From positions 27,830 through 91,829 of IMG/VR virus record IMGVR_UViG_3300012205_000277: DNA of 64,000 nucleotides, one strand, 5' to 3'. Below the pieces are notes generated by a model that was given only the letters and a program-made list of their open reading frames with translations, was not told the origin of the DNA and searched no databases. Each line of letters begins with the position of its first letter. Positions within the stretch are counted from its first letter, which is position 1. Origin of the DNA: a virus. This document shows, piece after piece, positions 3,807 through 62,390 of the stretch. Position numbers and translations under genes: made by a program.

Positions 3807-3936
3807 CTAGGGCGCATGCTGGCCGCACTGGGAGAGAGGCGCGCAAAATAAAAAAGCGCAATAGGGGCGCATTAGGGCGCATTTAGAATCTAGGGCAAGT
3901 TAGGTAGTAGGTTGCTGGCTGGGAGTCTGTAGGAGC

Positions 3937-3966
3937 AAAAAAAAAGGCCGGGCTCGCGGCCCGGCC
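3937..3966 (-). terminator. Rho-independent terminator
   Basis: GGCCGGGC-cgcga-GCCCGGCC hairpin followed by a T run. Confidence 0.85.
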
Positions 3967-3983
3967 AGTTAGGGTTAGTGTGT

Positions 3984-4172
3984 TCAGAGTTTGCCTGACC
4001 GGAGGGTCCGCACCGATGGAAGTGCGCGCAAGGAACTATGGGCTATCTTGTGCGCGGTACTCTCTGCGATGCTGAGGCGCGTTGCAATAGTGCGGAGAGA
4101 CAATCCGTACTCTTGTAGCGCGCGCACCCTAGCGGCTAGGCTAGGGGTAATTTGAAACGGTTTGCCAATCAT
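3984..4172 (-). CDS. Small helix-turn-helix protein
   Basis: GLSLRTIATRLSIAESTAHKI; GGAGG RBS. Confidence 0.75.
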   Translation of the reverse strand: MIGKPFQITPSLAARVRALQEYGLSLRTIATRLSIAESTAHKIAHSSLRALPSVRTLRSGKL

Positions 4173-4301
4173 GCTTTCCTCCCGGGATAGAGACAGGCAT
4201 CCCATACCGTTTGGTCCCGCGAATCATCCCGCAAAAAAGTATCGCGGAATAGATCCCCGAGAAGGAACAGCACCAAAAATACTTCGAAGAATGGGAGCAT
4301 G

Positions 4302-4544
4302 TTAGATGCTCTGTTTCTTGGCGGCTAAGTAAGACTCAAGCGCCGCCTGTAGGTTGTTATGGCGAAGGAAAGATTCTAGGTCCGCATCCGTTTGGAACAT
4401 GTAGCAGGGATTCGGCAATTCGGCGAACGGAATCAGAATGCGCGCGCCGTTTGCTTTTTTGCAAAAGCGCATTGCGGCGAGGCGGATTCTCTCCGATCGT
4501 TCGCGCACTGTCCGCTGAACGGTTTGCTTTGTAATCATAGGCAT
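4302..4544 (-). CDS. Hypothetical protein
   Basis: ATG after a leader hairpin and GAAAAGAGAATC. Confidence 0.6.
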   Translation of the reverse strand: MPMITKQTVQRTVRERSERIRLAAMRFCKKANGARILIPFAELPNPCYMFQTDADLESFLRHNNLQAALESYLAAKKQSI

Positions 4545-4602
4545 GGATTCTCTTTTCTTAACTGGCCGTCTAGTTTGGTTCATGCTCACTAGGCGGCCAG
4601 CT

Positions 4603-4637
4603 AAAAAAAATGGGAGCGGAAAAATAATCCGCTCCCA
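4603..4637 (-). terminator. Rho-independent terminator
   Basis: TGGGAGCGGA-loop-TCCGCTCCCA followed by a T run. Confidence 0.85.
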
Positions 4638-4649
4638 GGCCGGAAGAAA

Positions 4650-4799
4650 TTACCGATTGTCCAGAAAAGACTCGACCGCCTTGCGGCCCTTTTTGGCGGC
4701 GCGGAGATACGCTTGAGATTTCATCGTTTTCCAAGCGGCAAATGCCGCCTTGCGCGCACTGGCTGACCGACGCGATGCTGACTTGGATTGCTTGCTCAT
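4650..4799 (-). CDS. 49-aa basic protein (not in the ORF track)
   Basis: MSKQSKSASRRSASARKAAFAAWKTMKSQAYLRAAKKGRKAVESFLDNR; bounded by a promoter and a terminator. Confidence 0.7.
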   Translation of the reverse strand: MSKQSKSASRRSASARKAAFAAWKTMKSQAYLRAAKKGRKAVESFLDNR

Positions 4800-4863
4800 G
4801 GAGTGATTCTCTTTTCCGACTGGCCTAGCTTTGGTCGGGCTCGCTTGTGGCCAATCTGTAAGA

Positions 4864-4892
4864 AGTATGAACCTAGCCTATAAGATTGTCAA
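4864..4892 (-). promoter_or_regulatory. Sigma70-type promoter
   Basis: TTGACA-17 nt-CATACT. Confidence 0.75.
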
Positions 4893-5633
4893 CACAATTC
4901 GGAGTTAGGGCCAAAGAATAATTTGAATACAAGATTGGCCGATGCATGCAAAATACGGATACATACCGATGTATCAACGTTCGCTTTAGTTACGCTTTAG
5001 TTACGCTTTCCGCGCATACCATTTTCGGCATTCGATACCATTTATCATTTCGCGCATTCCATTTTCCATTTTTCCGCATATGCATTCCCATACGGAAAAC
5101 CCTGACCCTCCAAAATCTCTCTGGCGCAAAATACCGGGAAAGTATTTTCCAGTCCAGGAAATCAAAACGGATTTGAAAGGGGGGTCAATCGGCCATCTTG
5201 GGATCGCCGGCATTCTTGGGATTTAATGTTTGGTGAGTAGAACCTACCGGGCAACTTTATTGCTTGGACCGTGGTAAACTTGCGGCCATGAATCAACAGC
5301 AACAACACTGGCGAGATCCAAAAGAAAAAGTATTTTATATCGCGTGGATGACTAGCAAGAATGTGCCATGTATCTTAACCGGGCCGTTCGAAAATACCGA
5401 TCAAGCAAAACAGGCGATTGATGCGCTGCAACCACTGCATCGCAATAGACGCCTGGTCTATGTCGGGGGAGAACTCTGGCGCAGAATCGGATGGTAGACT
5501 TTCGCCTGTCGTCGCACGCCACAGTCTGATAAGACCTAAAAGGTTAACCTGGGGTCCATGTATCGTGGTGTGTGTTCAATAACTTACAGGGTAGCAGTAA
5601 TTATGCGGACCTTCGCCACTACTAATTGCGGTA

Positions 5634-7929: not shown

Positions 7930-9561
7930 ATGCCGGCAGCCAAACCCACCACCCCCGAGCCGGACATCCCCCAGGAGCTGATCGACAAGTTCACGCCCAA
8001 AAGGTTAATCACTGTCAAACTCCGGAATCCCGCCGGGCATCCGGGGCAGGAACGGATCTGCTATTCCACCAAGAAACGCATCATCGTAAGGGCCGGAAGA
8101 CGTGGAGGCAAAACTTCCGCCAGTGCCATCAAGGCGGTGATGTCGTTTTTAGGGGACCCCGATAGAGGCATTCCACCGAAACGCGTCCTTTATGCCGCGC
8201 CGACCATCGACCAGGTGCGTAAATTCTGGGAAGAAGTCAAACGCGCCTTGCACGAAGGCCTGGCCTACAAGGTGTATTACAAAAACGAGACCAACCATAT
8301 TATCGAGCCCTTCGGAACTCCGCCGGTGATGCCCGGAGAACGTCCCCGGCACCCACGGATCCGCGCCAAAACCGCCTTCAACGCGGAGAGTTTGCGTGGA
8401 GATTTCGCCGACGTTTTGATCCTCGATGAATACCAACTGATGGATGAAACCGCCTGGACGGAAGTCGGCGCGCCGATGCTGATGGACAATAACGGGGATG
8501 TGATTTTCATATACACGCCACCCAGCCTCGAAAGCCGCTCGGCATCGAAGGCGCGCGACCCGCAGCATGCCGCGAAAATGTACCGCGAACATAAAGACGA
8601 TCCGTTGTGGGAATGCATCCATTTCGCGAGCAGAGAAAACCCGCACATCTCTGAAGAAGGGATCGAAGAAGCCAGTAAGAACATGACGGCGCTCGCCTAC
8701 CGCCAGGAGATTCTCGCCGAAGATACCGAAGAAATTCCGGGAGCCTTGTGGACGCGGAAAATCATCGAAGAGTCCAGAGTGAAATCGATTCCGTGCGAAC
8801 TGCGGCGGGTGGTGGTGGCGGTCGATCCGAGCGGCGGAAACCTTACCGAAGTCGGGATCATGGCGGCCGGCGAAGGCGCCGACGGGCATTACTATGTGCT
8901 GCGCGACGCTTCGATGAAAGCCAGCCGGCCGAAAGAATGGGCGCAGCGCGCGGTGAACCTGTATTACGAGCTCCTCGCCGACCGGGTAATCGCGGAACGC
9001 AACTACGGCGGGGACATGGTCGAAGAAACGCTACGTAACGTGGATGAAAACGTGTCTTACCACGACGTTGTTTCTTCGCGCGGGAAACTGGTGCGCGCCG
9101 AGCCCATCCTGGCGCTGTTCCAGCAAAACAAGATGCACCTGGTATGCCGCTGCGGGCAATCGCCCTGCCGCGAATTCGCGGAACTGGAAGAAGAACTCGT
9201 CACGTACACGGCCGAAGCCGGCCAGAAATCGCCGAACCGCTTAGACGCCATGGTCTTTGCAGGAACGGAACTTTCCGGCATGGGCAGCCTCGGCCTGCTC
9301 GACCTGTTCAAGTCCGGGCGCGCCGGGAAAATGGCGGAACGGGAAATCGCGAAGATCAAGACGTCGACCTCGCTGGCCGCGATCGCGACAAACGACAAGA
9401 CCCCGCGGTGCACGAATTGCGGAAGCTTGACGCTAAGCGTGCTCAGCCGCGGGCCGCAATTCGACGGCGGGATCGAGTACCGCTGCCAGGCTTGCGGAAA
9501 CCAGCAACCCAAGCCCACCATTTTGGGAATCGGCAGCCGACGAATCCAATTGGAAAAATAA
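7930..9561 (+). CDS. terL: Terminase large subunit
   Basis: Walker A AGRRGGKT, YAAPT, LRG..DVLILDE (Walker B), nuclease VVAVDPSG, SPNRLDAM; extra C-terminal zinc ribbon. Confidence 0.95.
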   Translation: MPAAKPTTPEPDIPQELIDKFTPKRLITVKLRNPAGHPGQERICYSTKKRIIVRAGRRGGKTSASAIKAVMSFLGDPDRGIPPKRVLYAAPTIDQVRKFWEEVKRALHEGLAYKVYYKNETNHIIEPFGTPPVMPGERPRHPRIRAKTAFNAESLRGDFADVLILDEYQLMDETAWTEVGAPMLMDNNGDVIFIYTPPSLESRSASKARDPQHAAKMYREHKDDPLWECIHFASRENPHISEEGIEEASKNMTALAYRQEILAEDTEEIPGALWTRKIIEESRVKSIPCELRRVVVAVDPSGGNLTEVGIMAAGEGADGHYYVLRDASMKASRPKEWAQRAVNLYYELLADRVIAERNYGGDMVEETLRNVDENVSYHDVVSSRGKLVRAEPILALFQQNKMHLVCRCGQSPCREFAELEEELVTYTAEAGQKSPNRLDAMVFAGTELSGMGSLGLLDLFKSGRAGKMAEREIAKIKTSTSLAAIATNDKTPRCTNCGSLTLSVLSRGPQFDGGIEYRCQACGNQQPKPTILGIGSRRIQLEK

Positions 9562-10980: not shown

Positions 10981-11175
10981 ATGAAAGAAAAAGGGTGGCT
11001 TGGCCGGGTTATCTGTTTCCTGCATCTGTGCACGCTCGATCAGATCAGATACGACTGGGATCCGTTCATTCAGCACAAGCGGCGGAAATTCGGGATTTGC
11101 TCGCGGTGTTTGCGCAGTAAACGCCTGCCGGCACCTTGGCTTTGCCCGCATTGCCACGCCTTCCACTGGAGATAA
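10981..11175 (+). CDS. Small Cys/His-rich protein
   Basis: Starts directly after the previous stop; CSRC, CPHC. Confidence 0.5.
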   Translation: MKEKGWLGRVICFLHLCTLDQIRYDWDPFIQHKRRKFGICSRCLRSKRLPAPWLCPHCHAFHWR

Positions 11176-11181
11176 TTCGGC

Positions 11182-11211
11182 TTGACAGCGCGGGCGGAGT
11201 TCTGGCAAAGT
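11182..11211 (+). promoter_or_regulatory. Promoter of the Pth / amber-tRNA unit
   Basis: TTGACA at 11182 and TGgCAAAGT extended -10; predicted start is close to ATG 11221, so probably leaderless. Confidence 0.55.
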
Positions 11212-11220
11212 CTTCGCATC

Positions 11221-11658
11221 ATGACCTAGATTCCACAAGAAGAATCTTACGTTTTTTGTTTCATCCGCACTAACCTCCCGACCGAACATCAATTTGTGCA
11301 AGCCCTTCATTCCGTCTATCATCTGGCACAACTCCGCCGCGAAGATGGCACGCCCAACATCGTCCTGATCGGGTTGCCGGATGCGGCGGCGCTCCGGCGC
11401 GCGGAACAGAAGCTGATTGCCGCGAAGATCCCGCATTTTGTTTGGGAAGAGCCGGATTATAATTTTGGGCTTACGAGCATTGCGACGGCGCCGATCCGCG
11501 GCGATGAGCGCAAGGCTTTGGCCAATTATCGAGTTTACAAAGCACCGGTGGTGTCAAGTAGCACGTCGCCCTCTAAAGGTGAAAGTGTCTGCTCAATACA
11601 GACCCGGTGCGCCAATTCCAGTGGGGCAGGCACGGTTGCTAGCGCTGTGCGGGTTTGA
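11221..11658 (+). CDS. Peptidyl-tRNA hydrolase, PTH2/PTRHD1-like, with in-frame TAG at codon 3
   Basis: MT*IPQEESYVFCFIRTNLPTEHQFVQALHS...IVLIGL...IPHFVWEEPDYNFGLTSIATAP...LANYRVYK. The track ORF from 11296 lacks the first beta-strand. Confidence 0.8.
11542..11614 (+). tRNA. Non-canonical tRNA, anticodon CUA (amber suppressor-like)
   Basis: GCACCGG/CCGGTGC-G-CCA acceptor; D stem GTGT/GCAC; TCGCC-CTCTAAA-GGTGA; T arm GTCTG-CTCAATA-CAGAC. Confidence 0.8.
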
Positions 11659-11675
11659 GTACCACTGCCCCACCA
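11623..11675 (+). ncRNA. 53-nt D-armless tRNA-like RNA, loop centred on CUA (or GCU)
   Basis: GGGGCAG/CTGCCCC-A-CCA; GCACGGT-TGCTAGC-GCTGTGC; short GGT-TTGAGT-ACC arm. Confidence 0.6.
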
Positions 11676-11681
11676 GTTTGA

Positions 11682-11756
11682 CCGCGTGTAGCTCAGTGGC
11701 AGAGCAGGGACTTCTAAACTCCTTGGGCGCGAGTTCGATTCTCGCCACGCGGTCCA
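11682..11756 (+). tRNA. tRNA, anticodon CUA (amber suppressor; Arg-UCU reading less likely)
   Basis: CCGCGTG/CACGCGG-T-CCA; GCTC/GAGC D stem; GGGAC-TTCTAAA-CTCCT; canonical GTTCGATTC. Confidence 0.8.
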
Positions 11757-11781
11757 AATGTCAAGTTTCCGGCGCAAAAAC

Positions 11782-11809
11782 TTGACATTTAGAAACGGAA
11801 TCTTATACT
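11782..11809 (+). promoter_or_regulatory. Sigma70-type promoter
   Basis: TTGACA-16 nt-TATACT. Confidence 0.75.
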
Positions 11810-11858: not shown

Positions 11859-12965
11859 ATGCCAAACCTCGAGCTATCCGTCAATTCCATTTGTAAAATC
11901 GTTTCCGAAGAAAAATACGGTTTCAAATTCGGCAAGCCCGATCGTCCGTCGGCCGAATCGTTGTCTTGCATCCTCCCGATCCTGCGCAAGACGGCGCAAG
12001 TCCGCCAATACGTGACGTATCCGGAAAGCGATCAAGTCCTCGTCCACGACTCCGGCAGCATCAACAAAGTCAACCTGCTCAATTCCTCGAAAGAAAATGT
12101 TTTCGTCCGCAGCGGAACGATTTTCGAGGGCAAAGGCACGCAAAGCCGCGCGTTGACGCGCAGTGCGGTGCTCTTTCCCGGCCAGGCGGTGGCGCTCGAT
12201 GTGCGCTGCGTGCATGCCTCGCACGGGATCCGCAGCGGGTCGGCATTCGTTTACGGCGGGATCACCCCGCTGAGCGTCGATACGGCTTTCTATCGTTCCG
12301 GGTACACTCCGGGCGATCAGCACACCATGTGGAATACGGTAACGGCCAGCACCACTTCGATGAGCGGCATGTCGGCTGGCGAGGTCCCCGAACCGGTCCG
12401 CGGCAGCTTTGAAAAATGGGCTGGCGCCCCAAGGCGCGGAAGCCGTCGCAGCCTCATGGCTTCCGGCGGAAGCGTCGTCCAGGACTTCGGCAGAGCCGTC
12501 ATTGGCGAAGCCGGCCATGAAACGTACCTGCCCAACGCTGACAACCTCAAAGAGAACTTCGATGCGTTCGCCAAGAACTTTGACGAGATCCTGTCGAAAG
12601 CGCGGCTGCATGACAACCAGGTCGGTCTCGGGCTGATTACCGACAAAGGATGCAAAACCGTTGAACTTTTTGATATAGGCAAATCCTGGGAAGCGGTCCA
12701 CAAGGATTCTGTAAAACGCGTGGGCGCAGAATTGCTTCGCGGCGAGGACAAAACGAATGTGTTCGAATACAAGCCGGAGCATGCGGTCAATGCGGTTCGC
12801 GCGGTCCTTGGATTGCCGTTCAAAACCAACCTGATCTACCAACATAAGCCGTCGAACGGCGAGCCGCCGGTATCGATCTTTGGATTGACGGCCGAGCGCT
12901 TCGTCGGCGAAGTGGTCGAGTTGGATTCGCGAGTGATCCACCTGGTCATTATTGAGACGGTGTAA
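11859..12965 (+). CDS. ARPP-1 / DUF6569-like protein
   Basis: DSGSINKVNLLNSSKENVFVRSGTIFEGKGTQSR..VRCVH pattern; AAGGAG RBS. Confidence 0.7.
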   Translation: MPNLELSVNSICKIVSEEKYGFKFGKPDRPSAESLSCILPILRKTAQVRQYVTYPESDQVLVHDSGSINKVNLLNSSKENVFVRSGTIFEGKGTQSRALTRSAVLFPGQAVALDVRCVHASHGIRSGSAFVYGGITPLSVDTAFYRSGYTPGDQHTMWNTVTASTTSMSGMSAGEVPEPVRGSFEKWAGAPRRGSRRSLMASGGSVVQDFGRAVIGEAGHETYLPNADNLKENFDAFAKNFDEILSKARLHDNQVGLGLITDKGCKTVELFDIGKSWEAVHKDSVKRVGAELLRGEDKTNVFEYKPEHAVNAVRAVLGLPFKTNLIYQHKPSNGEPPVSIFGLTAERFVGEVVELDSRVIHLVIIETV

Positions 12966-48839: not shown

Positions 48840-49318
48840 TTTGTTTCTCCCTTTTTTGTTTGATTTTTAGTAGCCGACGCTATCGGCTACCGATTTCACA
48901 ATCCACCAGGTCTCTAGCAACAACACTCCTATCACGCAAAGAACTTGCCAGCCACGGATGCGAATTTCGTTCATGCCTTCGGTCATTGGTTAGCCCCCTA
49001 TTTTAAAATGTGGACTTGGAACAACCAATTCACCTCGCAAGGCCCGATCTTGAGTTTGGCCAGTTTCATCAGCGCTAACTTAGACTCTTGCTCGGCTGGT
49101 GGAGTATCGCACGTTCCGAAGGCATCTTCGACTAATCCTTTGAGATAGGCAGGTTCCAAATGGTGCCGTACGGCCAGCGCCCGCAGCCGCGATTCATAGG
49201 TGTCGAAAAACGTCTGCATCTTCGGCGGTTCTTCTTCCGGCTCTGGTTCAGGATTGTTGCCTGATAGAATCTGCTGTTCATCTGGAGGAATATTGACCAT
49301 TTGTGATTCATCCTTTCT

Positions 49319-53785: not shown

Positions 53786-53871
53786 TGGAGGAGGATGGAA
53801 GAATCGAACTTCCGTGCTTTCACACGCCCTGGGTTTCGAGTCCAGTTGCGGGCCGTTCCGCAGCACCCTCC
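53786..53871 (-). tRNA. tRNA-Ser(CGA)
   Basis: Cloverleaf, long variable arm, loop CTCGAAA, CCA. Confidence 0.85.
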
Positions 53872-53921
53872 GATGGAGAGTGCGATGATGATCCGCGTGT
53901 CATGACTTGATTATAACAGAT

Positions 53922-54008
53922 TGGCGGAGACGGAGAGACTTGAACTCTCACAACCTTGCGGTCGCCGGTTTAGCAAACCGGTGCGTTTACCAATTCCGCC
54001 ACGTCTCC
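53922..54008 (-). tRNA. tRNA-Ser(GCT)
   Basis: Loop TTGCTAA, long variable arm, CCA. Confidence 0.92.
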
Positions 54009-54015
54009 TCCAACT

Positions 54016-54094
54016 TGGTCGGTCCGGTTGGATTTGAACCAACGACCTACGGTTTATGAGACCGTTGCTCTAAACCGGTCTGAGCTACGGACCG
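54016..54094 (-). tRNA. tRNA-Met or Ile2 (CAT)
   Basis: Loop CTCATAA, CCA. Confidence 0.9.
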
Positions 54095-54098
54095 AAAC

Positions 54099-54177
54099 TG
54101 GTGGGTGCGGTGAGATTTGAACTCACAGCCTTCTCCTTAAGAGGGAGCTGCTCTGCGCAATTAGGAGCTACGCACCC
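54099..54177 (-). tRNA. tRNA-Lys(CTT)
   Basis: Loop CTCTTAA, CCA. Confidence 0.88.
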
Positions 54178-54182
54178 AAATC

Positions 54183-54272
54183 TGGTGGGGAAGGCCGGAA
54201 TCGAACCGGCATAGCCGCCAGGGCTAGCAGTTTTACAGACTGCCGAGCTCAGCCAATTCGCTCATCTTCCCC
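54183..54272 (-). tRNA. tRNA-Tyr(GTA)
   Basis: Loop CTGTAAA, long variable arm, CCA. Confidence 0.9.
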
Positions 54273-54403
54273 GAAACTTTTCACAGTCACGCGAATCGTA
54301 CTTCCGAATTGCTTGCGCTCAGCTTTCCGGTTGGCACGCTTACGCGCCGCAATTTCTTTTCTGATTTCTATCTTGCTCTGCGTCTTCATATCACCACCAA
54401 TCT

Positions 54404-54479
54404 TAGCGGCCCTGGCAGGATTCGAACCCGCATATCTTGATTAGAACTCAAGACCGTTATCCGTTACGGTAACAGGGCC
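54404..54479 (-). tRNA. tRNA-Arg(TCT)
   Basis: CTTGA-GTTCTAA-TCAAG; 3' end is CTA rather than CCA. Confidence 0.85.
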
Positions 54480-54489
54480 ACAAAGCTTT

Positions 54490-54564
54490 TGGTCCCGCTT
54501 CGCGGAATCGAACCGCGGTCACTGGCTTTTCAGACCAGGGCTGCTTCCACTGAGCTAAAGCGGG
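54490..54564 (-). tRNA. tRNA-Phe(GAA)
   Basis: Loop CTGAAAA, CCA. Confidence 0.88.
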
Positions 54565-54574
54565 CCGTAAATTG

Positions 54575-54674
54575 TTCTAGGAGTGCCTAAGCCTTGTCCG
54601 CTGCGCTATTGGTTCGGACGCATATGCCTCACCATCCTAGCTGGTCAGCCACGCGCTACCCACCACTCCTAGAA
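54575..54674 (-). ncRNA. Non-tRNA structured RNA candidate inside the tRNA array
   Basis: 11-bp terminal stem TTCTAGGAGTG/CACTCCTAGAA with internal hairpins; no cloverleaf or CCA. Confidence 0.5.
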
Positions 54675-54676
54675 AC

Positions 54677-54753
54677 TGGCGGACCTGATGGGTTTCGAAC
54701 CCACGATCTCCACATAGACAGTGTGGCGAGGACAGCCGCTCCTCTACAGGTCC
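54677..54753 (-). tRNA. tRNA-Asp(GTC)
   Basis: CCACA-CTGTCTA-TGTGG, CCA. Confidence 0.9.
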
Positions 54754-54757
54754 AAAC

Positions 54758-54833
54758 TGGCTGGGGCGGAAGGACTCGAACCTTCAAATACCGCGTTAAC
54801 GGCGCGGCCCTGTACCGATTGAGGCACACCCCA
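54758..54833 (-). tRNA. tRNA-Asn(GTT)
   Basis: CCGCG-CCGTTAA-CGCGG, CCA. Confidence 0.88.
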
Positions 54834-55167
54834 AAACTTTTATCAATTCCGGATGATGTTCTTCTGCATGACAATTCAAACAAAGGAGCTCACACTTCTT
54901 AAGCTCCTTTTCAATCTTCGCCCAAGCCAAAATATGGCCACCGCCAACACCAAAAGATTTCTCTCCGGGATGATGGAAAATTAAAGCAGCAAAGCATTTG
55001 TCATATCCGCATCGTTGACATTTTCCACCAAGGAATTCAACGGCTTTTTGTTTCGTCCGCCGCCTCCATTCAGTAACGTAAAATATGGTGCCATGTCCTC
55101 TACAGCAAAATCTATTGTTCGCTCTTTTTCCGGATAGCTCCTTATCGCACCATTCACATTTTTTCAT
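54796..55167 (-). CDS. HNH endonuclease in the tRNA array
   Basis: LGGKCQRCGY..ALIFHH..ELKKCELLCLNCHAEEH. Confidence 0.85.
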   Translation of the reverse strand: MKKCEWCDKELSGKRANNRFCCRGHGTIFYVTEWRRRTKQKAVEFLGGKCQRCGYDKCFAALIFHHPGEKSFGVGGGHILAWAKIEKELKKCELLCLNCHAEEHHPELIKVLGCASIGTGPRR

Positions 55168-55198
55168 GGCGGCATATATTAACACATGCCGTTAATTC

Positions 55199-55282
55199 TG
55201 GTGCGCGCGAAAGGATTTGAACCTCCACGCCCGAAGGCGCTGCGTCCTAAGCGCAGTGCGTCTGCCGTTCCGCCACGCGCGC
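55199..55282 (-). tRNA. tRNA-Leu(TAG)
   Basis: CTGCG-CTTAGGA-CGCAG, variable arm, CCA. Confidence 0.92.
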
Positions 55283-55494
55283 AATCTTTTTTATGCGACT
55301 TCGCTTTGCCTTGCCGCCGCTTGCTCGTCAAATCGTTCGTCCAGGGCTCTTGTTTCTTTCCGGAATCGGCTCACGCATTTATAACAGAACCAACCGAGCG
55401 TTGTGAGTATTCCGTTGCCTGGCAATCTGTCTGTCCTGCAAAGTTTACATTTTTTAGCCGGCATCGTTCCTCAATTCTGGCCTGGGCCTATTCT

Positions 55495-55569
55495 TGGTAC
55501 CCAGCTAAGGACTCGAACCCTAATCCCTTCGGTGTAGGCGAAGTATCCTGACCGTTAGACGAGCCGGGC
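55495..55569 (-). tRNA. tRNA-Val(TAC)
   Basis: CTTCG-CCTACAC-CGAAG, CCA. Confidence 0.85.
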
Positions 55570-55576
55570 ACAAACT

Positions 55577-55771
55577 CTATTTAAAATTGGCGATGCGGTC
55601 AGTAAGGATTTTCGCATATTCACCCATCACCGCGTGCTGACGCGTCAATCTCGCGTGTTCCTCAACATCAAGAGATTTGAATGTGGCTCCCTGGAGGAAC
55701 ACGCCAAGCTTAGCGTGCTTCTCGGTCAATTCATTCAATTCCGTTACGACCCGTTCTTGATGTGGCTGCAT
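55577..55771 (-). CDS. crAss001_48-like helical-hairpin protein, candidate immune-signal sponge
   Basis: MQPHQERVVTELNEL..KL..F...RLTRQHAVMGEYAKILTDRI; AAGGAG RBS. Confidence 0.75.
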   Translation of the reverse strand: MQPHQERVVTELNELTEKHAKLGVFLQGATFKSLDVEEHARLTRQHAVMGEYAKILTDRIANFK

Positions 55772-55789
55772 ACTTTCTCCTTCAAAATC

Positions 55790-55867
55790 TGGTGAGGGCG
55801 AGAGGACTTGAACCTCCATATCATTCACGTTCGTAGCGTGAGCCGTTATCCATTACGGGACGCCCTC
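55790..55867 (-). tRNA. tRNA-Arg(ACG)
   Basis: TCACG-CTACGAA-CGTGA, CCA. Confidence 0.88.
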
Positions 55868-56076
55868 AGAAAACTTTTTTGTCCGCTTCAAATACATATC
55901 ATAAAACTTTGCCGCCGTTGGTCCATGCCAACCGATGGCATCGCCTATTTCATTCCAAGTTTTGCCCTCTGCGAGCATCCGTTCCACGGTCGGAATATGT
56001 CCTTGTTGCTCAAGGCCGAATTGAATCTGTACTCCATCAAAAACCTTGAGCAAACTCTTCAACGATTCTTTCATCC

Positions 56077-56152
56077 TGGTGGTCCCGCGCGGATTCGAAC
56101 CGCGATCGCCAGTTCCGGAAACTGGTGTCCTGTCCGGTTGGACGACGGAACC
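56077..56152 (-). tRNA. tRNA-Arg(CCG)
   Basis: CCAGT-TTCCGGA-ACTGG, CCA. Confidence 0.9.
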
Positions 56153-56260
56153 AAACTCTTAGAATATCTTGCTGGCTAAAACCAGCAGACATTCGAGCGC
56201 AATGCCAACTGCTGCGATGTACCAATAGATGTTGGCGCTACGCCATCTACTCATAAACTT

Positions 56261-56346
56261 TGGTGCGCGGTAAGAGACTCGAACTCTTACGGGTCATGCC
56301 CAACAGATTTTAAGTCTGTCGCGTCTACCACTTCCGCCAACCGCGC
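56261..56346 (-). tRNA. tRNA-Leu(TAA)
   Basis: ACAGA-CTTAAAA-TCTGT, variable arm, CCA. Confidence 0.92.
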
Positions 56347-56350
56347 ATTC

Positions 56351-56436
56351 TGGTGCCGGAGGAGAGATTCCCACTCTCACGCCGCTAAGGCGTCCGCTTT
56401 TGAAGCGGATGCGTCTGGTAGTTCCGCCACTCCGGC
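56351..56436 (-). tRNA. tRNA-Leu(CAA)
   Basis: TCCGC-TTCAAAA-GCGGA; atypical T loop TGGGAAT; CCA. Confidence 0.82.
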
Positions 56437-56910
56437 AAATCTGTTTTTAATGCCAAAATTATCCGTCTGTGAATGACAGTTCGGACATGCAAATCGTAAA
56501 TTTTCGGGACGGTCATCCCATTTCCATCCGTTCTTATGGTCAACATGGAGCGTCAATGGCTTGTTGTTCCAAACTGGAAGTTGACCACAAATTTCACATT
56601 TATATTCTCGTCCACTATCCCTCAGTGCGCGTCTTCGTCGCGGTGCTCGTACGGGCTCAGCATTTTGGTCATGTAATATCAAAATTTCTTGCCAAGGTTG
56701 TTTTGGAGAACCACCTTTATATCTCAGCCCGCAATTGGCGGCTTGTCCTAAAAAATGAGTTGTGTCAATTTCCAGTCGCGCGATGCGTCGTTTTAGATAT
56801 AAGTATGAACCGCCAGCAATTCGTAGACCAAGCCGAACCATAACCTGTGCCATTGACGTACTCGGTTTTACGGCATCTTGAAGCATTTCCTTACTGTATT
56901 TTGAATGCAT
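56377..56910 (-). CDS. HNH endonuclease in the tRNA array
   Basis: YKCEICG..WNNKPLTLHVDHKNG..DDRPENLRFACPNCHSQT. Confidence 0.92.
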   Translation of the reverse strand: MHSKYSKEMLQDAVKPSTSMAQVMVRLGLRIAGGSYLYLKRRIARLEIDTTHFLGQAANCGLRYKGGSPKQPWQEILILHDQNAEPVRAPRRRRALRDSGREYKCEICGQLPVWNNKPLTLHVDHKNGWKWDDRPENLRFACPNCHSQTDNFGIKNRFAGVAELPDASASKADALAA

Positions 56911-56944
56911 TTTAAATCTCCATTCCGTCAAGGGCCCGAACTCT

Positions 56945-57020
56945 TGGTGGGCGGAGTTGGTCTCGAACCAACCGCCGCAGCCTTATCAAGACTGTGCTCT
57001 ACCTGATGAGCTATCCGCCC
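56945..57020 (-). tRNA. tRNA-Ile(GAT)
   Basis: Loop TTGATAA, CCA. Confidence 0.9.
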
Positions 57021-57031
57021 ACAAAATCTTT

Positions 57032-57106
57032 TGGCAGGCCCGGAGAGACTCGAACTCTCGTTAACGGGTTTGGAGGCCGTTGTCCTAGCCGCTAGACGAC
57101 AGACCT
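57032..57106 (-). tRNA. tRNA-Trp(CCA)
   Basis: Loop CTCCAAA, CCA. Confidence 0.88.
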
Positions 57107-57113
57107 GCCGAAC

Positions 57114-57187
57114 TGGAGCGGACGCGGAGGATCGAACTCCGTTGTTCACCTTGGAAGAGTGATACCCAACCAATGGGCCACGCCCGC
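57114..57187 (-). tRNA. tRNA-Gly(TCC)
   Basis: GCGGGCG acceptor, loop CTTCCAA, TCCA end. Confidence 0.88.
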
Positions 57188-57191
57188 AAAC

Positions 57192-57265
57192 TGGAGCGGA
57201 TGAGCGGAATCGAACCGCTGTACCGAGAATGGCGTTCTCGGGTCTTTCCACTAGACGACACCCGC
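57192..57265 (-). tRNA. tRNA-Gly(GCC)
   Basis: CGAGA-ACGCCAT-TCTCG, TCCA end. Confidence 0.85.
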
Positions 57266-57329
57266 CAAGATCTTCACCGGATTGCCGCTGTCGCGCCTCC
57301 TTAACGCCGCCGATCCGGTTACTGCAACT

Positions 57330-57404
57330 TGGGGCCGAGTGAGAGATTCGAACTCCCGACGCGCAGTTTACAGAACTGCCGTTCTACCGCTGAACTAACC
57401 CGGC
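57330..57404 (-). tRNA. tRNA-Thr(TGT)
   Basis: GCAGT-TCTGTAA-ACTGC, CCA. Confidence 0.82.
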
Positions 57405-57410
57405 GAAATT

Positions 57411-57487
57411 TGGGGCCAGGAGAGAGAGTCGAACTCTCGTCTTCGCATTACCAATGCGATGCTCTAAACCGACTGAGCTATCCCGGC
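57411..57487 (-). tRNA. tRNA-Thr(GGT)
   Basis: TCGCA-TTGGTAA-TGCGA, CCA. Confidence 0.92.
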
Positions 57488-57672
57488 AAACTAGTACGGC
57501 CCTATGCTGCCAGCAGCTACTCTGCCGGCAACCGGCTCGCGCTCCTCGATCCAGAGCAGGATATCGCCAAGAACAGCAAGCAACATCTTCTCGCGCTCCG
57601 GTCCCGCTGGCAGATCGTGGATCCGATTGTATTTCTCCCGGATGTCTTTTGCCGTCATGGTTGCCTCCAATT

Positions 57673-57747
57673 TGGAGCTGGCTCGCGGACTCGAACCGCG
57701 GTCCTGGCGTTACGAGTGCCGAACTCTGCCCGTTGAGCTAAGCCAGC
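57673..57747 (-). tRNA. tRNA-Thr(CGT)
   Basis: Loop CTCGTAA, CCA. Confidence 0.85.
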
Positions 57748-57757
57748 AAAAAACTTT

Positions 57758-57833
57758 TGGTTCCCCGGGTTGGCCTCGAACCAACATTTCAAGATCCAGA
57801 ATCTCGCGTCCTGCCTACTTGAACGACCGGGGA
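57758..57833 (-). tRNA. tRNA-Gln(CTG)
   Basis: Loop TTCTGGA, CCA. Confidence 0.88.
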
Positions 57834-57846
57834 AGTGACGCAAACA

Positions 57847-57920
57847 TGGATGGGAGGCAGGGATTCGAACCCCGATACTGAGATCCAAAATCTCAAGTCC
57901 TGCCGTTGGACGACCTCCCA
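57847..57920 (-). tRNA. tRNA-Gln(TTG)
   Basis: TGAGA-TTTTGGA-TCTCA, CCA. Confidence 0.9.
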
Positions 57921-57925
57921 AAACT

Positions 57926-58001
57926 TGGTGGGACCGGCGAGACTCGAACTCGCGCTAGTCCGCTTAAAAGGCGGATGCTTTACCATCTAAGCTACGGTCC
58001 C
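57926..58001 (-). tRNA. tRNA-Lys(TTT)
   Basis: TCCGC-CTTTTAA-GCGGA, CCA. Confidence 0.92.
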
Positions 58002-58002
58002 G

Positions 58003-58076
58003 TACCCCGAATCAGAATCGAACTGACATCTCAGCCTTGAAAGGGCCGTGTGCTAAACCGTTTGCACCATCGGGGC
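58003..58076 (-). tRNA. tRNA-Glu(TTC)
   Basis: Loop CTTTCAA; no encoded CCA; abuts tRNA-Lys. Confidence 0.88.
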
Positions 58077-58088
58077 ATTGCACAAAAT

Positions 58089-58164
58089 TGGTCGCCGCGG
58101 TGGGATTTTAACCCACGATCCCTTCTACCCGAAAGAAGTGCCTTGAACGCTAGGCCACGCGGCG
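58089..58164 (-). tRNA. tRNA-Pro(CGG)
   Basis: CTTCT-TTCGGGT-AGAAG, CCA. Confidence 0.85.
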
Positions 58165-58168
58165 GAAC

Positions 58169-58245
58169 TGGTGGCATCGGTCGGATTCGAACCGACAATC
58201 TCTTGCTCCCAAAGCAAGCGGGTTGAACCGTTTCCCTACGACGCC
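58169..58245 (-). tRNA. tRNA-Pro(TGG)
   Basis: CTTGC-TTTGGGA-GCAAG, CCA. Confidence 0.88.
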
Positions 58246-58254
58246 AATAAATTT

Positions 58255-58330
58255 TGGGGCGACGGATGAGAGTCGAACTCACTAGAAGATGCTCCACAGG
58301 CATCCGCCTCACCGTTTGGCTTCCGTCACC
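58255..58330 (-). tRNA. tRNA-His(GTG)
   Basis: GATGC-CTGTGGA-GCATC; G-1/C73; CCA. Confidence 0.9.
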
Positions 58331-58368
58331 ACAGAAACTCCATTCCGCTCAACACAACTTTAAAAATC

Positions 58369-58444
58369 TGGTGGACGCGATCGGATTCGAACCGACTGCC
58401 TCGGGGATGCAAAGCCCGCGCTCTCCCAAGTGAGCTACGCGCCC
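58369..58444 (-). tRNA. tRNA-Ala(TGC)
   Basis: G3:U70 pair, loop TTTGCAT, CCA. Confidence 0.92.
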
Positions 58445-58486
58445 AAACTAGACTAGCACGACTGGGAACTTATGGGGAAAGTTTAT

Positions 58487-58741
58487 TTATATTTTCCCTG
58501 ACGGGAATTCTTTCGAGGACGTCGGCTGGACATATCGGGTGAGTGGGTAAGCTATGAGCAGTTCATTCCGGCCAACGGAGAAGTTGGCGCCATGCCGATT
58601 GGCATCGGGATTGGGATTCGGCTGAATATGATTCGCCGGCGAGACCGGGCCGTTCACAAAAGCGTTGCCGGCCACAGCAATGACGCCAACGCGTGAATCC
58701 AAAACTGGATTTCGGAAATCTGGTTGACTGTAATTCGGCAT
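58487..58741 (-). CDS. Small NxxQxDxR-repeat protein
   Basis: MPNYSQPDFR...LLIAYPLTRYVQP; GGAGG RBS. Confidence 0.75.
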   Translation of the reverse strand: MPNYSQPDFRNPVLDSRVGVIAVAGNAFVNGPVSPANHIQPNPNPDANRHGANFSVGRNELLIAYPLTRYVQPTSSKEFPSGKI

Positions 58742-58750
58742 TTCATCCTC

Positions 58751-59023
58751 CTAATGGGGATTGTTGCTTGTTCCCATCGGCCCTTTTAGCCCGCTGACGT
58801 TTGTCTGAATATTTGGCTGAACGTACGCAGGCAGCGGCCATGTCAAAGCGATCGGGTTTTTCGTTGCCGTTCCCGGCGTTGGCACGATCGTCGGCTTTCG
58901 GTAATCGACTTGCGAATGATTGCCGGCGTGTGCAGGTCCTGGTATCAACGCATTGATGCCTGTCTGAACCGTTATTTGCGAATTTTTTCGAGTATCAGTA
59001 TCGGGTTGAATGTAATTTCCCAT
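58751..59023 (-). CDS. Small NxxQxDxR-repeat protein
   Basis: MGNYIQPD..NHSQVDYR..LTWPLPAYVQP. Confidence 0.75.
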   Translation of the reverse strand: MGNYIQPDTDTRKNSQITVQTGINALIPGPAHAGNHSQVDYRKPTIVPTPGTATKNPIALTWPLPAYVQPNIQTNVSGLKGPMGTSNNPH

Positions 59024-59031
59024 GCGACCCT

Positions 59032-59301
59032 CTATGGTTGATTGTATCGCGGGATCGGCCAGCTCAAAAGCAATACGTTCGTGCCGACAGGATAAGTCGC
59101 TACTAGAGGACTTGTATCCGGATCGCGGTAATCGTTTTGCGTGTAATTTGGCGGTCGGCTGGAATCGAGAATCTCCAACGGATTTAATTTTGCCGGATGA
59201 TCCTCTGTCAGCGGGCTTAAAGGGGCGCGATAATCGGTCTGTGTGCTATTGCCGGACCAGGTCCCACTGTTCAAGCCCATTGGATTTAAATTGAAGGACA
59301 C
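59032..59301 (-). CDS. Small NxxQxDxR-repeat protein
   Basis: NSTQTDYR..PPNYTQNDYR..SPLVATYPVGTNVLLLSWPIPRYNQP; GTG start after GGAG. Confidence 0.75.
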   Translation of the reverse strand: MSFNLNPMGLNSGTWSGNSTQTDYRAPLSPLTEDHPAKLNPLEILDSSRPPNYTQNDYRDPDTSPLVATYPVGTNVLLLSWPIPRYNQP

Positions 59302-59314
59302 GTATCTCCACTAT

Positions 59315-59389
59315 GCCGTTCCTGCCTTGCCACGTTCGGGACTTACCCTGCCAATGCTCGTCGGGACTGGCCGTGCCTAGACTTGCCGT
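59315..59389 (-). repeat. 5-nt-period array upstream of the 59301 start
   Basis: gccgttcctgccttgcc head, then ttcgg gactt accct gccaa tgctc gtcgg gactg gccgt gccta gactt gccgt. Confidence 0.75.
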
Positions 59390-59458
59390 ATTTAGGCTCA
59401 CACATTAACCGAACACTGTCAACACTTTCTTGCGGCCTAAGTTTATAGTTAAGAGTGT

Positions 59459-60205
59459 TTATTTCGGCTCTTCATGCTTGGGAAGTGGCCAGGTCAATAG
59501 CAACATGTTTGAGCCAACCGGATAAGTTGCAACTAATGGAGAAATTTGGGGTGAACGATAATCTGGCTGTTGAAAATTTGGCGGCCAGCGCGGCGCTGCT
59601 ATAGGTGCCGTGCCAATCACGAATGAAGCTGCCAGGTCCGCCACCAGGCCGCTGAGACTGACCTCGCCGCTATAAGGGTTACCGCCGGTGCTCGCGGATC
59701 CGGCGGTTCCTACGATGGCGGCCGATGCGCTCATGCTGATGATATTGGAAGGTGCAAGATCCGCGTTCCCGGCGAATGTCCCCGAGACTGGCATTGTGCT
59801 GGAAGTGGAGTGCGCGACTACAGCAGCGCCGGTTAGCGTCGACAGACTAGCGATCGTGTTTGCAGCTGCATCGGTAAGAGCAGCGGCGCCGTCTAGGGAC
59901 ATGGAACAAAATAAAAGATCGCCGGCGAATTCACTGAATGCGGCATTGGCACCAAGAGCCTCTGAAATCGGCATCGTGAGAACCACGGAAGGAGTGACTC
60001 CAGCCGCGCCTGTCAGCGCCAGGGAGACAACCTCAGTCATTATTGTTGTATTGGAGACGTCGACTGCTCCGGCAAGTGTTTCGGTAACCGGAATCGTGGA
60101 GACGCCAAGATCAGAAATGTCCGAGGTCCCGGCGAGATAGATCGAGGCAGAGTAATATCTTGCCCAGCGTTCACGCTGTTGATTCAGGATTGCTGCAGTA
60201 GGCAA
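59459..60205 (-). CDS. Ala/Ser/Thr-rich repetitive, probably virion, protein with a C-terminal QPDYR module
   Basis: Periodic L.G.A repeats; C-terminus PPNFQQPDYRSPQISPLVATYPVGSNMLLLTWPLP. Confidence 0.65.
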   Translation of the reverse strand: MPTAAILNQQRERWARYYSASIYLAGTSDISDLGVSTIPVTETLAGAVDVSNTTIMTEVVSLALTGAAGVTPSVVLTMPISEALGANAAFSEFAGDLLFCSMSLDGAAALTDAAANTIASLSTLTGAAVVAHSTSSTMPVSGTFAGNADLAPSNIISMSASAAIVGTAGSASTGGNPYSGEVSLSGLVADLAASFVIGTAPIAAPRWPPNFQQPDYRSPQISPLVATYPVGSNMLLLTWPLPKHEEPK

Positions 60206-60208
60206 ATT

Positions 60209-60979: not shown

Positions 60980-60989
60980 GGCTATCCTT

Positions 60990-61238
60990 TCAGAACGCTA
61001 AGAAATTGGGAATCTCCGGCAGCGGGATGAATCCGCCTGTTTGCATCATGTGTTGCCCCATGATGGCGTAGTTCTGCGCCCGGATTTCCCGTAAAAGATT
61101 TGCGAGCGGCATCAGGGAATCCTGGATGTCCATTGTCTCGCGGCGCAAGTCCTGTTGGGTTGCGTAATCGGTGCCGAGCAACACTGAATCGAGGACCGCA
61201 TCGACTGTTGCAGGATTTTGATATTTAAGATTTGCCAT
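60990..61238 (-). CDS. Hypothetical protein in the structural block
   Basis: AGGAG RBS; tight packing. Confidence 0.65.
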   Translation of the reverse strand: MANLKYQNPATVDAVLDSVLLGTDYATQQDLRRETMDIQDSLMPLANLLREIRAQNYAIMGQHMMQTGGFIPLPEIPNFLAF

Positions 61239-61246
61239 TCAAACTC

Positions 61247-61900: not shown

Positions 61901-62047
61901 GCCCCTCCTGCAGGAGGGATGGGCCGCTGGCGCTGAGGCCCAGCCCGCTCGGCGCCGCAGAACGATCGGTACCGGAAATACCGACGCCTCTCTCCATCCC
62001 CTGTTCCAGTTTCCGGTGGCCCCGTTCACATTGCAAGCGAATCTTGA

Positions 62048-62299: not shown

Positions 62300-62318
62300 G
62301 GTGGACCTCCAGGAAATT

Positions 62319-62390
62319 TTGCGGGGAAGCGAATTGAACGCTTTATCTTTGGGTTATGAGCCCAACGGATTACCGTTTTCCCGCCCCGCA
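62319..62390 (-). tRNA. Initiator-type tRNA-fMet(CAT)
   Basis: TTGGG-CTCATAA-CCCAA (three G-C pairs); TGCGGGG/CCCCGCA acceptor; no encoded CCA. Confidence 0.8.

What the first reader, a model, noticed from the sequence alone, without database searches (positions are those of the whole stretch)
11182..11756. Amber-gated peptidyl-tRNA hydrolase co-transcribed with three CUA tRNA-like genes: candidate new translation sensing/rescue system
Seen: a TTGACA promoter, then an ATG at 11221 with no nearby SD, reading ATG ACC TAG ATT. After the TAG the same frame continues into a complete PTH2/PTRHD1-like domain (YVFCFIRTNL..QALH..IVL..HFVWEEPD..TSIATAP). No ATG/GTG/TTG start lies between the TAG and the first beta-strand. 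Directly downstream are three tandem CCA-ending tRNA folds (11542, 11623, 11682), each with CTA at the loop centre, and a new promoter at 11782 closes the unit. Known: suppressor tRNAs compete with RF1 at UAG; two-codon minigenes (lambda bar type) cause peptidyl-tRNA drop-off that Pth recycles; prfB uses an in-frame stop to sense release-factor activity. Inference: Pth is made only when amber is read through, either by the adjacent tRNAs or when RF1 is impaired. That would form a self-contained feedback module, perhaps countering host defences that attack translation. Other genes in the window use TAG as a normal stop, so the recoding is local.
Basis: partly seen in the sequence, partly recalled or inferred. 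Interest (0 to 1): 0.95.

Follow-up and report, generated by a model that had tools for sequence, protein, structure and literature searches.

The report
Suppressor-tRNA-gated phage PTH2-like operon
A soil phage with the normal genetic code puts a UAG stop at codon 3 of a small tRNA-hydrolase-like gene and encodes two UAG-reading tRNAs right behind it, a layout kept in dozens of distant phages, so the enzyme is probably made only when those tRNAs override the stop.

Summary
ATG(11221)-ACC-TAG(11227) opens a frame that encodes a PTH2-fold domain, and no start codon lies between the TAG and strand beta1. Two genuine tRNA-CUA genes follow. The "third tRNA" is a conserved, non-decoding tRNA-like minihelix ending in CCA.

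The early TAG is not an error. Independent soil runs and a diverged strain keep it. Of 71 distinct homologous phage loci, 50 have the same design: ATG, 0-7 codons, TAG, then a codon starting with a purine. These include the cultured phages GAP32, Arash, RsoM2USA and ME3.

All five cultured genomes considered carry a tRNA-CUA (three found here, ME3 annotated, XacN1 published). Two relatives gated by TGA carry a tRNA-UCA instead. The genome otherwise uses TAG as a stop.

Best reading: programmed read-through by the phage's own suppressor tRNAs couples synthesis of a tRNA-ester hydrolase to suppressor activity. The enzyme's substrate and the sign of the feedback are unknown.

Features specific to this clade are a near-leaderless start, an ORF with no stop before it runs into the tRNA, and the minihelix.

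I found no published description. Earlier notes of this scan report the same module on many other genomes.

The parts
11182..11211 (+). Promoter-like site: TTGACA (-35) at 11182-11187 and a weak -10 (GCAAAG/CAAAGT) about 17-18 nt later. The ATG lies 9-10 nt after the -10, so the mRNA is near-leaderless.
   Evidence: Sequence. TTGACA/TTGACT sits 45-52 nt before the TAG in most loci of this clade, with better -10 boxes in relatives such as TATATT and GATAAT. The simple scan did not score this site.
11221..11229 (+). Two-codon leader ATG ACC followed by the in-frame amber gate TAG (11227-11229).
   Evidence: Conserved as ATG + 0-7 codons + TAG in 50 of 71 distinct loci. Kept in independent soil runs and in a diverged strain.
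11230..11538 (+). PTH2-fold domain (103 codons) with motifs RTNL, VQxxH and EPD...GLT...TAP.
   Evidence: AF2 and Foldseek. Family profile against a PDB peptidyl-tRNA hydrolase gives E 4e-4. Pfam PTH2 matches only weakly in 5 of 7 close relatives. The XacN1 relative passes the Pfam cut-off. The representative search found 1478 proteins at E<=1e-3.
11539..11658 (+). In-frame extension of the ORF (39 sense codons plus the stop) through tRNA 1 to a TGA inside the T-like loop of the minihelix. The ORF has no stop of its own before the tRNA.
   Evidence: In the 16 informative loci where a tRNA follows within about 90 nt, the ORF frame stays open for at least 30 codons. The other two frames do so in 8 of 34 cases.
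11542..11614 (+). tRNA-CUA number 1: G73, encoded CCA, atypical D and T loops.
   Evidence: ARAGORN. Rfam tRNA 44.6 bits against a 29-bit cut-off. A G73 class recurs at this position in relatives.
11623..11675 (+). tRNA-like minihelix without a D arm: 7-bp acceptor stem, 7-bp hairpin, 3-bp T-like hairpin with loop UUUGAGU, A73 and CCA. It does not decode.
   Evidence: MFE -29.4 kcal/mol, z -2.6. In 9 orthologues, 14 of 15 pairs show compensatory changes. Model R1 finds one copy per locus, only in this clade, including the untrained L019. No Rfam family matches.
11682..11756 (+). tRNA-CUA number 2: U73, encoded CCA, canonical D and T loops, C31-C39 mismatch in the anticodon stem.
   Evidence: ARAGORN. 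Rfam tRNA 59.9 bits. A U73 class recurs at this position in relatives.
11753..11809 (+). 16-nt inverted repeat (11753-11768 / 11778-11793) directly after tRNA 2. It overlaps the -35 of the next promoter (TTGACA-16-TATACT, 11782-11809), which marks the end of the unit.

Best explanation
This is a phage operon transcribed from a TTGACA promoter as a near-leaderless mRNA that begins AUG-ACC-UAG.

Ribosomes that start at the AUG make the full PTH2-fold protein only if the UAG at codon 3 is decoded by an amber-suppressor tRNA. Two such tRNAs, one with G73 and one with U73, are encoded directly downstream on the same transcript, together with a non-decoding tRNA-like minihelix. Otherwise RF1 releases a dipeptide.

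Synthesis of an enzyme whose fold acts on the acyl or peptidyl ester at the tRNA 3' end is therefore coupled to the activity of the phage's own suppressor tRNAs. It works as a translational gate and very likely as a feedback loop on tRNA function.

Shown here:
- the anatomy;
- the fold;
- conservation of the gate;
- linkage and codon-anticodon covariation with suppressor tRNAs;
- a standard genetic code elsewhere in the genome.

Inferred:
- that read-through actually happens;
- that the enzyme hydrolyses tRNA esters;
- which tRNA species it acts on;
- whether the loop supports or restrains suppression.
For: The gate is conserved.
- Of 71 distinct homologous loci, 50 have ATG/GTG + 0-7 codons + TAG 5-15 codons before beta1, with no ATG in between. 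Three more read TAG-ATG.
- Further cases turned up in metagenome contigs.

Initiation is at the upstream ATG.
- Many relatives have a good SD at the right distance from that ATG, for example L040, L046, L048, L076 and L081.

Re-initiation after the TAG does not fit.
- The codon after the TAG starts with a purine in 50 of 50 cases.
- In 12 of these it is AAT, AAC, GAT, GAA, GCG or GGC, none of which is a start codon.

The gate is linked to suppressor tRNAs.
- A tRNA-CUA lies on the same strand within the short locus in 27 of 50 cases.
- GAP32, Arash and RsoM2USA all carry one. ME3 has one annotated 450 nt upstream.
- The two TGA-gated relatives, from complete 172-kb and 229-kb genomes, have a tRNA-UCA 115-266 nt upstream. 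No tRNA-CUA was found among the tRNAs scanned.

The TAG is real.
- Independent runs and a diverged strain keep it.

The code is otherwise standard.
- The 91.8-kb record has no other gated start, and TAG ends 16 of 76 crude ORFs.

The protein has the PTH2 fold with conserved motifs.
Against: - There is no expression, proteomic or biochemical evidence of any kind.
- The charging identity of the tRNAs is unknown.
- The Lys of the canonical Pth2 GK motif is H/Q here, so hydrolase activity or substrate may differ.
- The window protein itself does not reach Pfam PTH2.
- In this clade the codon after the TAG is always ATT, ATC or ATG, which leaves room for some re-initiation.
- A strong suppressor should be costly, because TAG also ends ordinary phage genes.
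- In 23 of 50 loci no tRNA-CUA lies within the short stretch examined.
Confidence: 0.65

Rival explanations
1. Termination followed by re-initiation. The two-codon ORF only loads 70S ribosomes on the leaderless AUG. They terminate at UAG and restart at the adjacent AUU, so no suppressor is needed. The tRNAs are merely neighbours.
For: In this clade the codon after the TAG is always ATT, ATC or ATG. Across all gated loci it is ATT/ATC in 23 and GTN in 15 of 50. L006, L012 and L019 have TAG-ATG.
Against: Twelve of 50 loci have AAT, AAC, GAT, GAA, GCG or GGC after the TAG and no other start. TAA or TGA would serve re-initiation equally well, yet the stop is TAG in 50 of 53 cases. The exceptions carry the matching suppressor, TGA with tRNA-UCA. 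Linkage to tRNA-CUA is always on the same strand.
Confidence: 0.1
2. The ORF acts mainly as a cis-regulatory leader for the tRNA genes. With an amber at codon 3, the 310-nt ORF is ribosome-free unless suppressor is present. Translation that runs into tRNA 1 would then control Rho-dependent polarity or RNase P access. The operon would tune output of its own suppressor tRNA, and the protein would be secondary.
For: The amber is always at the extreme 5' end. In this clade the ORF has no stop before the tRNA and stays open for at least 30 codons in 16 of 16 loci, against 8 of 34 for the other frames. All parts are co-transcribed, with no promoter predicted between them.
Against: The protein is under clear purifying selection, with a large family and invariant motifs. 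In other clades the gene has its own stop 1-13 codons after the domain, and the tRNA-CUA lies upstream or kilobases away. This can therefore be at most a clade-specific extra layer.
Confidence: 0.1
3. The gate senses release factor 1 rather than the tRNAs. Read-through rises when host RF1 is depleted or inhibited, and the phage tRNAs serve other purposes.
For: A purine after UAG occurs in 50 of 50 cases. From my memory of the E. coli context literature, this fits a weak-termination, high-suppression context.
Against: Without a cognate tRNA, near-cognate read-through of UAG is normally very low (general knowledge). Gate codon and suppressor anticodon covary. The tRNAs are in cis.
Confidence: 0.05
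4. Artefact or decay: the TAG is a sequencing error, the gene is a pseudogene, or the phage uses code 15 throughout.
For: Gene callers truncate or miss the gene.
Against: The TAG is identical in independent runs and in a diverged strain. It is conserved across phages sharing only 27-66% identity. There is no other in-frame TAG start, and TAG is used as a terminator.
Confidence: 0.02

Closest known systems
Stop-codon-recoded phages (code 15, TAG read as Gln) with their own suppressor tRNAs (Borges et al., bioRxiv 10.1101/2021.08.26.457843; PMC9523058)
   Same: A phage-encoded tRNA-CUA decodes in-frame TAG. The proposed role is to make expression of certain genes depend on the suppressor.
   Different: Here the genome uses the standard code and TAG ends ordinary genes. 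Only one gene is gated, always at codons 2-9, and that gene encodes a tRNA-acting enzyme next to the tRNAs. The preprint does not mention peptidyl-tRNA hydrolase (0 occurrences).
prfB (RF2) autoregulation through an in-frame UGA, and infC AUU start-codon autoregulation
   Same: A translation factor's own synthesis depends on a recoding event that reports the activity of the translation component it belongs to.
   Different: The mechanism is read-through by a dedicated tRNA encoded in cis, not a +1 frameshift. That the product acts back on the event is not shown.
PTH2 genes of jumbo phages (Iyer et al. 2021, PMC7824862)
   Same: The same protein family in group 2/3 jumbo phages, proposed there to hydrolyse peptidyl-tRNA during ribosome rescue after tRNA cleavage.
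   Different: That paper never uses the word suppressor, and amber appears only in a cited title. Several GenBank records miss or truncate the gene.
Orphan amber-suppressor tRNAs of standard-code jumbo phages, e.g. XacN1 (PMC5852040)
   Same: XacN1 has two tRNA-CUA genes. It also has a relative of this protein, ORF364, preceded by SD-ATG-AAG-TAG four codons before the annotated start.
   Different: The authors report that they could not find target genes for the suppressors. The gated PTH2-like gene offers a candidate target.
Lambda bar-type two-codon minigenes and peptidyl-tRNA drop-off (named from memory, not checked)
   Same: AUG-NNN-stop at the very 5' end of a message, and a link to peptidyl-tRNA hydrolase.
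   Different: Here the stop is in frame with a downstream ORF and is matched by a suppressor. Leaders of 1-8 codons occur. Drop-off is untested.
Acceptor/T-arm minihelices and irregular tRNA polycistrons (lead from earlier scan notes; papers not read here)
   Same: A CCA-ended acceptor stem plus a T-like arm without a decoding anticodon arm, lying in a tRNA polycistron.
   Different: This is a natural, conserved 53-nt element with a GGCA-capped hairpin, found once per locus and only behind this gene. Its function is unknown.

Membership tests
PTH2 peptidyl-tRNA hydrolase (Pfam PF01981) | Match to the Pfam model above the gathering score | tested here: not met
   The window protein has no Pfam hit. 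Five of 7 close relatives match only at E >= 0.04. A distant relative, XacN1 ORF364, does pass at 25.3 bits against a 23-bit cut-off.
PTH2 peptidyl-tRNA hydrolase (Pfam PF01981) | PTH2 alpha/beta fold | tested here: met
   The top 12 Foldseek PDB hits are Pth2 proteins (2zv3, 1wn2, 1q7s, 3erj, 1xty, 1rlk) plus DUF2000 (2gax). TM is 0.67-0.75 and probability 1.0. Model pLDDT is 78.6.
PTH2 peptidyl-tRNA hydrolase (Pfam PF01981) | Active-site Asp of the D-A-G..T motif and the RxDL / QxxHA motifs | tested here: met
   In the profile alignment to PDB 24bt (E 4e-4), EPD (D76) aligns with DAG, RTNL with RTDL and VQxxH with VQSCHA. R13 and H27 are invariant; D15, Q21, D76 and T86 are nearly so. The catalytic role of these residues is from memory.
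PTH2 peptidyl-tRNA hydrolase (Pfam PF01981) | Lys of the G-K motif, reported as essential in archaeal Pth2 (from memory) | tested here: not met
   The aligned positions are H20/Q21 in the window and Q-Q in the family consensus.
PTH2 peptidyl-tRNA hydrolase (Pfam PF01981) | Hydrolysis of peptidyl-tRNA | not testable with these tools
   Needs an enzyme assay.
Amber-suppressor tRNA | Cloverleaf scoring as a tRNA, with a 7-nt anticodon loop, U33 and CUA at positions 34-36 | tested here: met
   Met for 11542-11614 and 11682-11756. Not met for the middle element 11623-11675: it has no D arm, has G at position 33, and its orthologues carry a GGCA tetraloop.
Amber-suppressor tRNA | Processing, aminoacylation and decoding of UAG | not testable with these tools
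   No RNA run is listed. Similarity to the phage's other tRNAs is uninformative: best matches are 0.67 and 0.77 identity to unrelated isoacceptors.
Programmed stop-codon read-through gene | In-frame stop conserved among homologues, with coding sequence conserved on both sides or no alternative start | tested here: met
Programmed stop-codon read-through gene | Full-length product detected | not testable with these tools
   No proteomics available.
Code-15 (TAG-recoded) phage | In-frame TAG in many genes, and TAG not used as a terminator | tested here: not met
   There is only one gated start in 91.8 kb. TAG ends 16 of 76 crude ORFs. Making TAG a sense codon gives no meaningful merging of ORFs.
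Initiator tRNA with CUA anticodon (start at UAG) | C1xA72 mismatch and three G-C pairs in the anticodon stem | tested here: not met
   Both tRNAs pair positions 1-72 and lack the 3 G-C stem (sequences). The upstream ATG, with an SD in relatives, is conserved.

The most novel reading that the evidence does not exclude
The operon is a self-setting homeostat for stop-codon suppression. The PTH2-like enzyme acts specifically on the ester of the phage's own suppressor tRNAs (aminoacyl- or peptidyl-tRNA-CUA, perhaps with the CCA minihelix as decoy or cofactor). Because it can be made only by suppression, UAG read-through would be held at a set level in a standard-code phage. In this clade, ribosomes that read through also run into tRNA 1, because the ORF has no stop, and so would damp maturation of that tRNA.
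Probability: 0.15. Interest if true: 0.9.

Novelty: new variant of a known kind. Interest (0 to 1): 0.8.

Why it matters
Suppressor tRNAs in phages that use the standard code have had no known targets; the XacN1 authors say so explicitly. A conserved gene that needs exactly such a tRNA, and that encodes a tRNA-acting enzyme, supplies a concrete and testable target.

It also points to a natural tRNA-operated translational switch, a design so far known mainly from synthetic biology.

The design occurs in cultured phages of Cronobacter, Salmonella, Ralstonia, Acinetobacter and Xanthomonas, so it can be tested directly.

It also exposes a systematic annotation error: the gene is truncated, split or missed in GenBank records.

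The CCA minihelix and the stop-less ORF that abuts a tRNA add two unexplained RNA-level features.

Tried and rejected
- The genome-contig scan with A3 failed because no stretch was conserved enough. With A2 it gave only two MAG contigs, Gemmatimonadetes and Ca. Angelobacter, which say little about the host.
- Sequencing runs: no RNA holder is listed, so nothing can be said about expression.
- I tried to learn the inserted residue from database proteins that start MTQ (P0011, P0013, P0022). Their DNA was not found in viral or metagenome contigs, so the Q may simply be a TAG translated under code 15 by the source.
- tRNA identity by similarity to the phage's 31 other tRNAs was inconclusive.
- The idea of a CUA initiator tRNA starting at UAG was rejected. 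The tRNAs lack initiator features, and the upstream ATG/SD is conserved.
- I looked for a second gated gene, such as the HD hydrolase reported in earlier scan notes. There is none in this window or in the rest of the record.
- Rfam has no family for the minihelix.
- For the TAA-gated L054, no tRNA-UUA was seen, but the record is a 21%-complete fragment.
- Complex prediction was not used, because no protein-protein claim is made.

Full report
**Context**

The window is the last 64 kb of a 91.8-kb IMG/VR virus record from soil. It carries a large terminase at 7930-9561 and 33 tRNA genes. G+C is 53%.

**Check of the observation**

The sequence reads TTGACA (11182-87), then a weak -10, then ATG(11221) ACC TAG(11227) ATT. 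The frame stays open from 11230 to TGA at 11656-58. No ATG, GTG or TTG lies between the TAG and the first strand. The first is GTG 11296, inside helix 1.

ARAGORN and Rfam both call two tRNA-CUA genes, at 11542-11614 and 11682-11756.

The fold between them (11623-11675) ends in A-CCA and has CUA in a 7-nt loop. It has no D arm, has G at position 33, and is called by neither program.

A site matching the sigma-70 consensus at 11 of 12 positions lies at 11782-11809.

Contigs from three other soil runs are identical over ATG-ACC-TAG. A strain with 9 differences in 233 nt keeps it too. The TAG is therefore not an error.

**What the protein is**

Pfam gives nothing for the window protein. Its close relatives match PTH2 only weakly.

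An AF2 model (pLDDT 78.6) matches Pth2 structures and DUF2000 as its 12 best PDB hits, with TM about 0.7. A 56-sequence family profile hits a PDB peptidyl-tRNA hydrolase at E 4e-4. In that alignment RTDL, VQxxHA and the Asp of DAG (here EPD, D76) line up, but the Lys of the GK motif is H/Q here.

A distant relative, XacN1 ORF364, passes the Pfam PTH2 cut-off.

The family is large: 1478 representatives at E<=1e-3. Many are called with truncated N-termini.

**Comparative test of the gate**

Scans of IMG/VR gave 82 loci, of which 71 are distinct.

In 50 of them, the nearest in-frame stop upstream of beta1 is TAG, 5-15 codons before the motif. No ATG lies in between, and an ATG (47 cases) or GTG (3 cases) lies 1-8 codons upstream. 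The leader is two codons in 28 loci and three in 13. Three more loci read TAG-ATG.

Many relatives have a good SD in front of the upstream ATG. This window's clade instead has TTGACA/TTGACT 45-52 nt before the TAG and the ATG 8-10 nt after the -10, which makes the message near-leaderless.

The codon after the TAG starts with A (31 loci) or G (19 loci), never with a pyrimidine. In 12 loci it is not a possible start codon. This argues against re-initiation as the general mechanism.

More cases appeared in metagenome contigs, including a subclade with a conserved leader, MRKAIGDL.

The cultured phages GAP32, Arash, RsoM2USA and ME3 show the same design. XacN1 has SD-ATG-AAG-TAG four codons before its annotated start.

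**Link to suppressor tRNAs**

A tRNA-CUA lies on the same strand within the short locus in 27 of 50 gated loci.

GAP32, Arash and RsoM2USA each encode one near the gene, inside their tRNA regions. ME3 has one annotated 450 nt upstream. XacN1 is reported to have two, with no known targets.

Following a lead from an earlier scan note, I tested covariation between gate codon and anticodon. Two relatives gated by TGA (L056, ATG GAA TCG TGA; L064, ATG GAA CAT TGA) come from complete 172-kb and 229-kb genomes. Each has a tRNA-UCA 115-266 nt upstream, and no tRNA-CUA was found among the tRNAs scanned. These loci show high ORF coverage under the standard code.

One TAA-gated locus lies on a fragment, and no tRNA-UUA was seen there.

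**The code is otherwise standard**

Neither the window nor the rest of the record holds another gated start. TAG ends 16 of 76 crude ORFs.

**Features specific to this clade**

1. No stop before the tRNA. The domain ends 4 nt before tRNA 1 and has no stop of its own. The frame runs 39 codons through tRNA 1 to a TGA in the minihelix. In the 16 informative loci where a tRNA follows within about 90 nt, this frame is open for at least 30 codons, against 8 of 34 for the other two frames. Shared ancestry inflates this figure, but the loci differ in the number and spacing of their tRNAs.
2. The minihelix is a real structured RNA. Nine orthologues give three helices, and 14 of 15 pairs show compensatory changes. 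A covariance model finds exactly one copy per locus, only in this clade, including an untrained locus. Its hairpin loop is GGCA in eight of nine, so the CUA here is not a conserved anticodon.
3. The two suppressors form two classes. One has G73 and sits first; the other has U73 and sits last. Both recur in relatives, and 35 of 40 distinct CUA tRNAs encode CCA. This suggests two amino-acid identities, which remain unknown.

**Mechanism**

The best-supported reading is programmed amber read-through by the cis-encoded suppressors. This makes synthesis of a tRNA-ester hydrolase-like enzyme depend on suppressor activity.

Still open:
- whether the enzyme recycles dropped-off peptidyl-tRNA, removes blocked aminoacyl-tRNA, or restrains the suppressor itself;
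- whether translation into tRNA 1 affects tRNA maturation or transcriptional polarity.

**Literature and earlier notes**

Jumbo-phage PTH2 is known (PMC7824862), as is suppressor-dependent recoding in code-15 phages. Four full-text searches found no paper that connects the two or describes the gate.

Earlier notes of this scan describe the same module on many other genomes. I treat these as leads, not as support.

Noticed in passing
window 53786-62390 (- strand): An array of 31 tRNA genes covering most amino acids, far from the two CUA tRNAs and on the opposite strand. The suppressors are kept apart from the general tRNA set.
   Followed up: partly
window 11859-12965 (+): The gene directly downstream, behind the strong promoter at 11782, carries an ARPP-1 domain (PF20208, E 5e-16), a domain described from conflict systems. 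Relation to the operon unknown.
   Followed up: no
window 11539-11611: In soil run X7 (a 90-95% identical strain), one contig joins 11539 to 11611. That variant lacks tRNA-CUA number 1 (71 nt). The side is only 35 nt and likeness was set at 90, so this is weak.
   Followed up: no
L026, L028, L151, L168-L172 (leaders before the TAG): A subclade has a longer, conserved leader peptide before the gate: MRKAIGDL, MRKALGDINDL or MKLQLEGL. This hints that the leader sequence itself matters there.
   Followed up: no
L086 (Salmonella phage Arash, OQ632216.1 49173-49247 and 50233-50729): GenBank annotates the tRNA at 49176-49247 as tRNA-Phe, whereas ARAGORN reads a CUA anticodon. The gated gene is annotated as two pieces, gp85c and gp84c ('peptidyl-tRNA hydrolase').
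   Followed up: partly
L084 (XacN1 AP018399.1, locus 640-670): ORF364 has a ~175-aa N-terminal domain fused to PTH2. It is preceded by AGAGGA-N8-ATG AAG TAG ACC ATT AAA GCG ATG, so its real start may be the gated ATG, four codons upstream of the annotated one.
   Followed up: partly
L002 4536-4632; L003 4440-4542: The last tRNA of the operon in these relatives has a CUA loop (C33 in L002) followed by a ~25-30-nt insertion after the anticodon stem. This could be a long variable arm or an intron. ARAGORN miscalls or misses them.
   Followed up: no
window about 3900-5630: This stretch has almost no ORF of 80 aa or more on either strand under the standard code.
   Followed up: no
window 10981-11175 (+): A 64-aa Cys-rich (CxxC...CxxC) ORF ends 7 nt before the TTGACA. 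It is conserved in L002 but not in the other loci.
   Followed up: no
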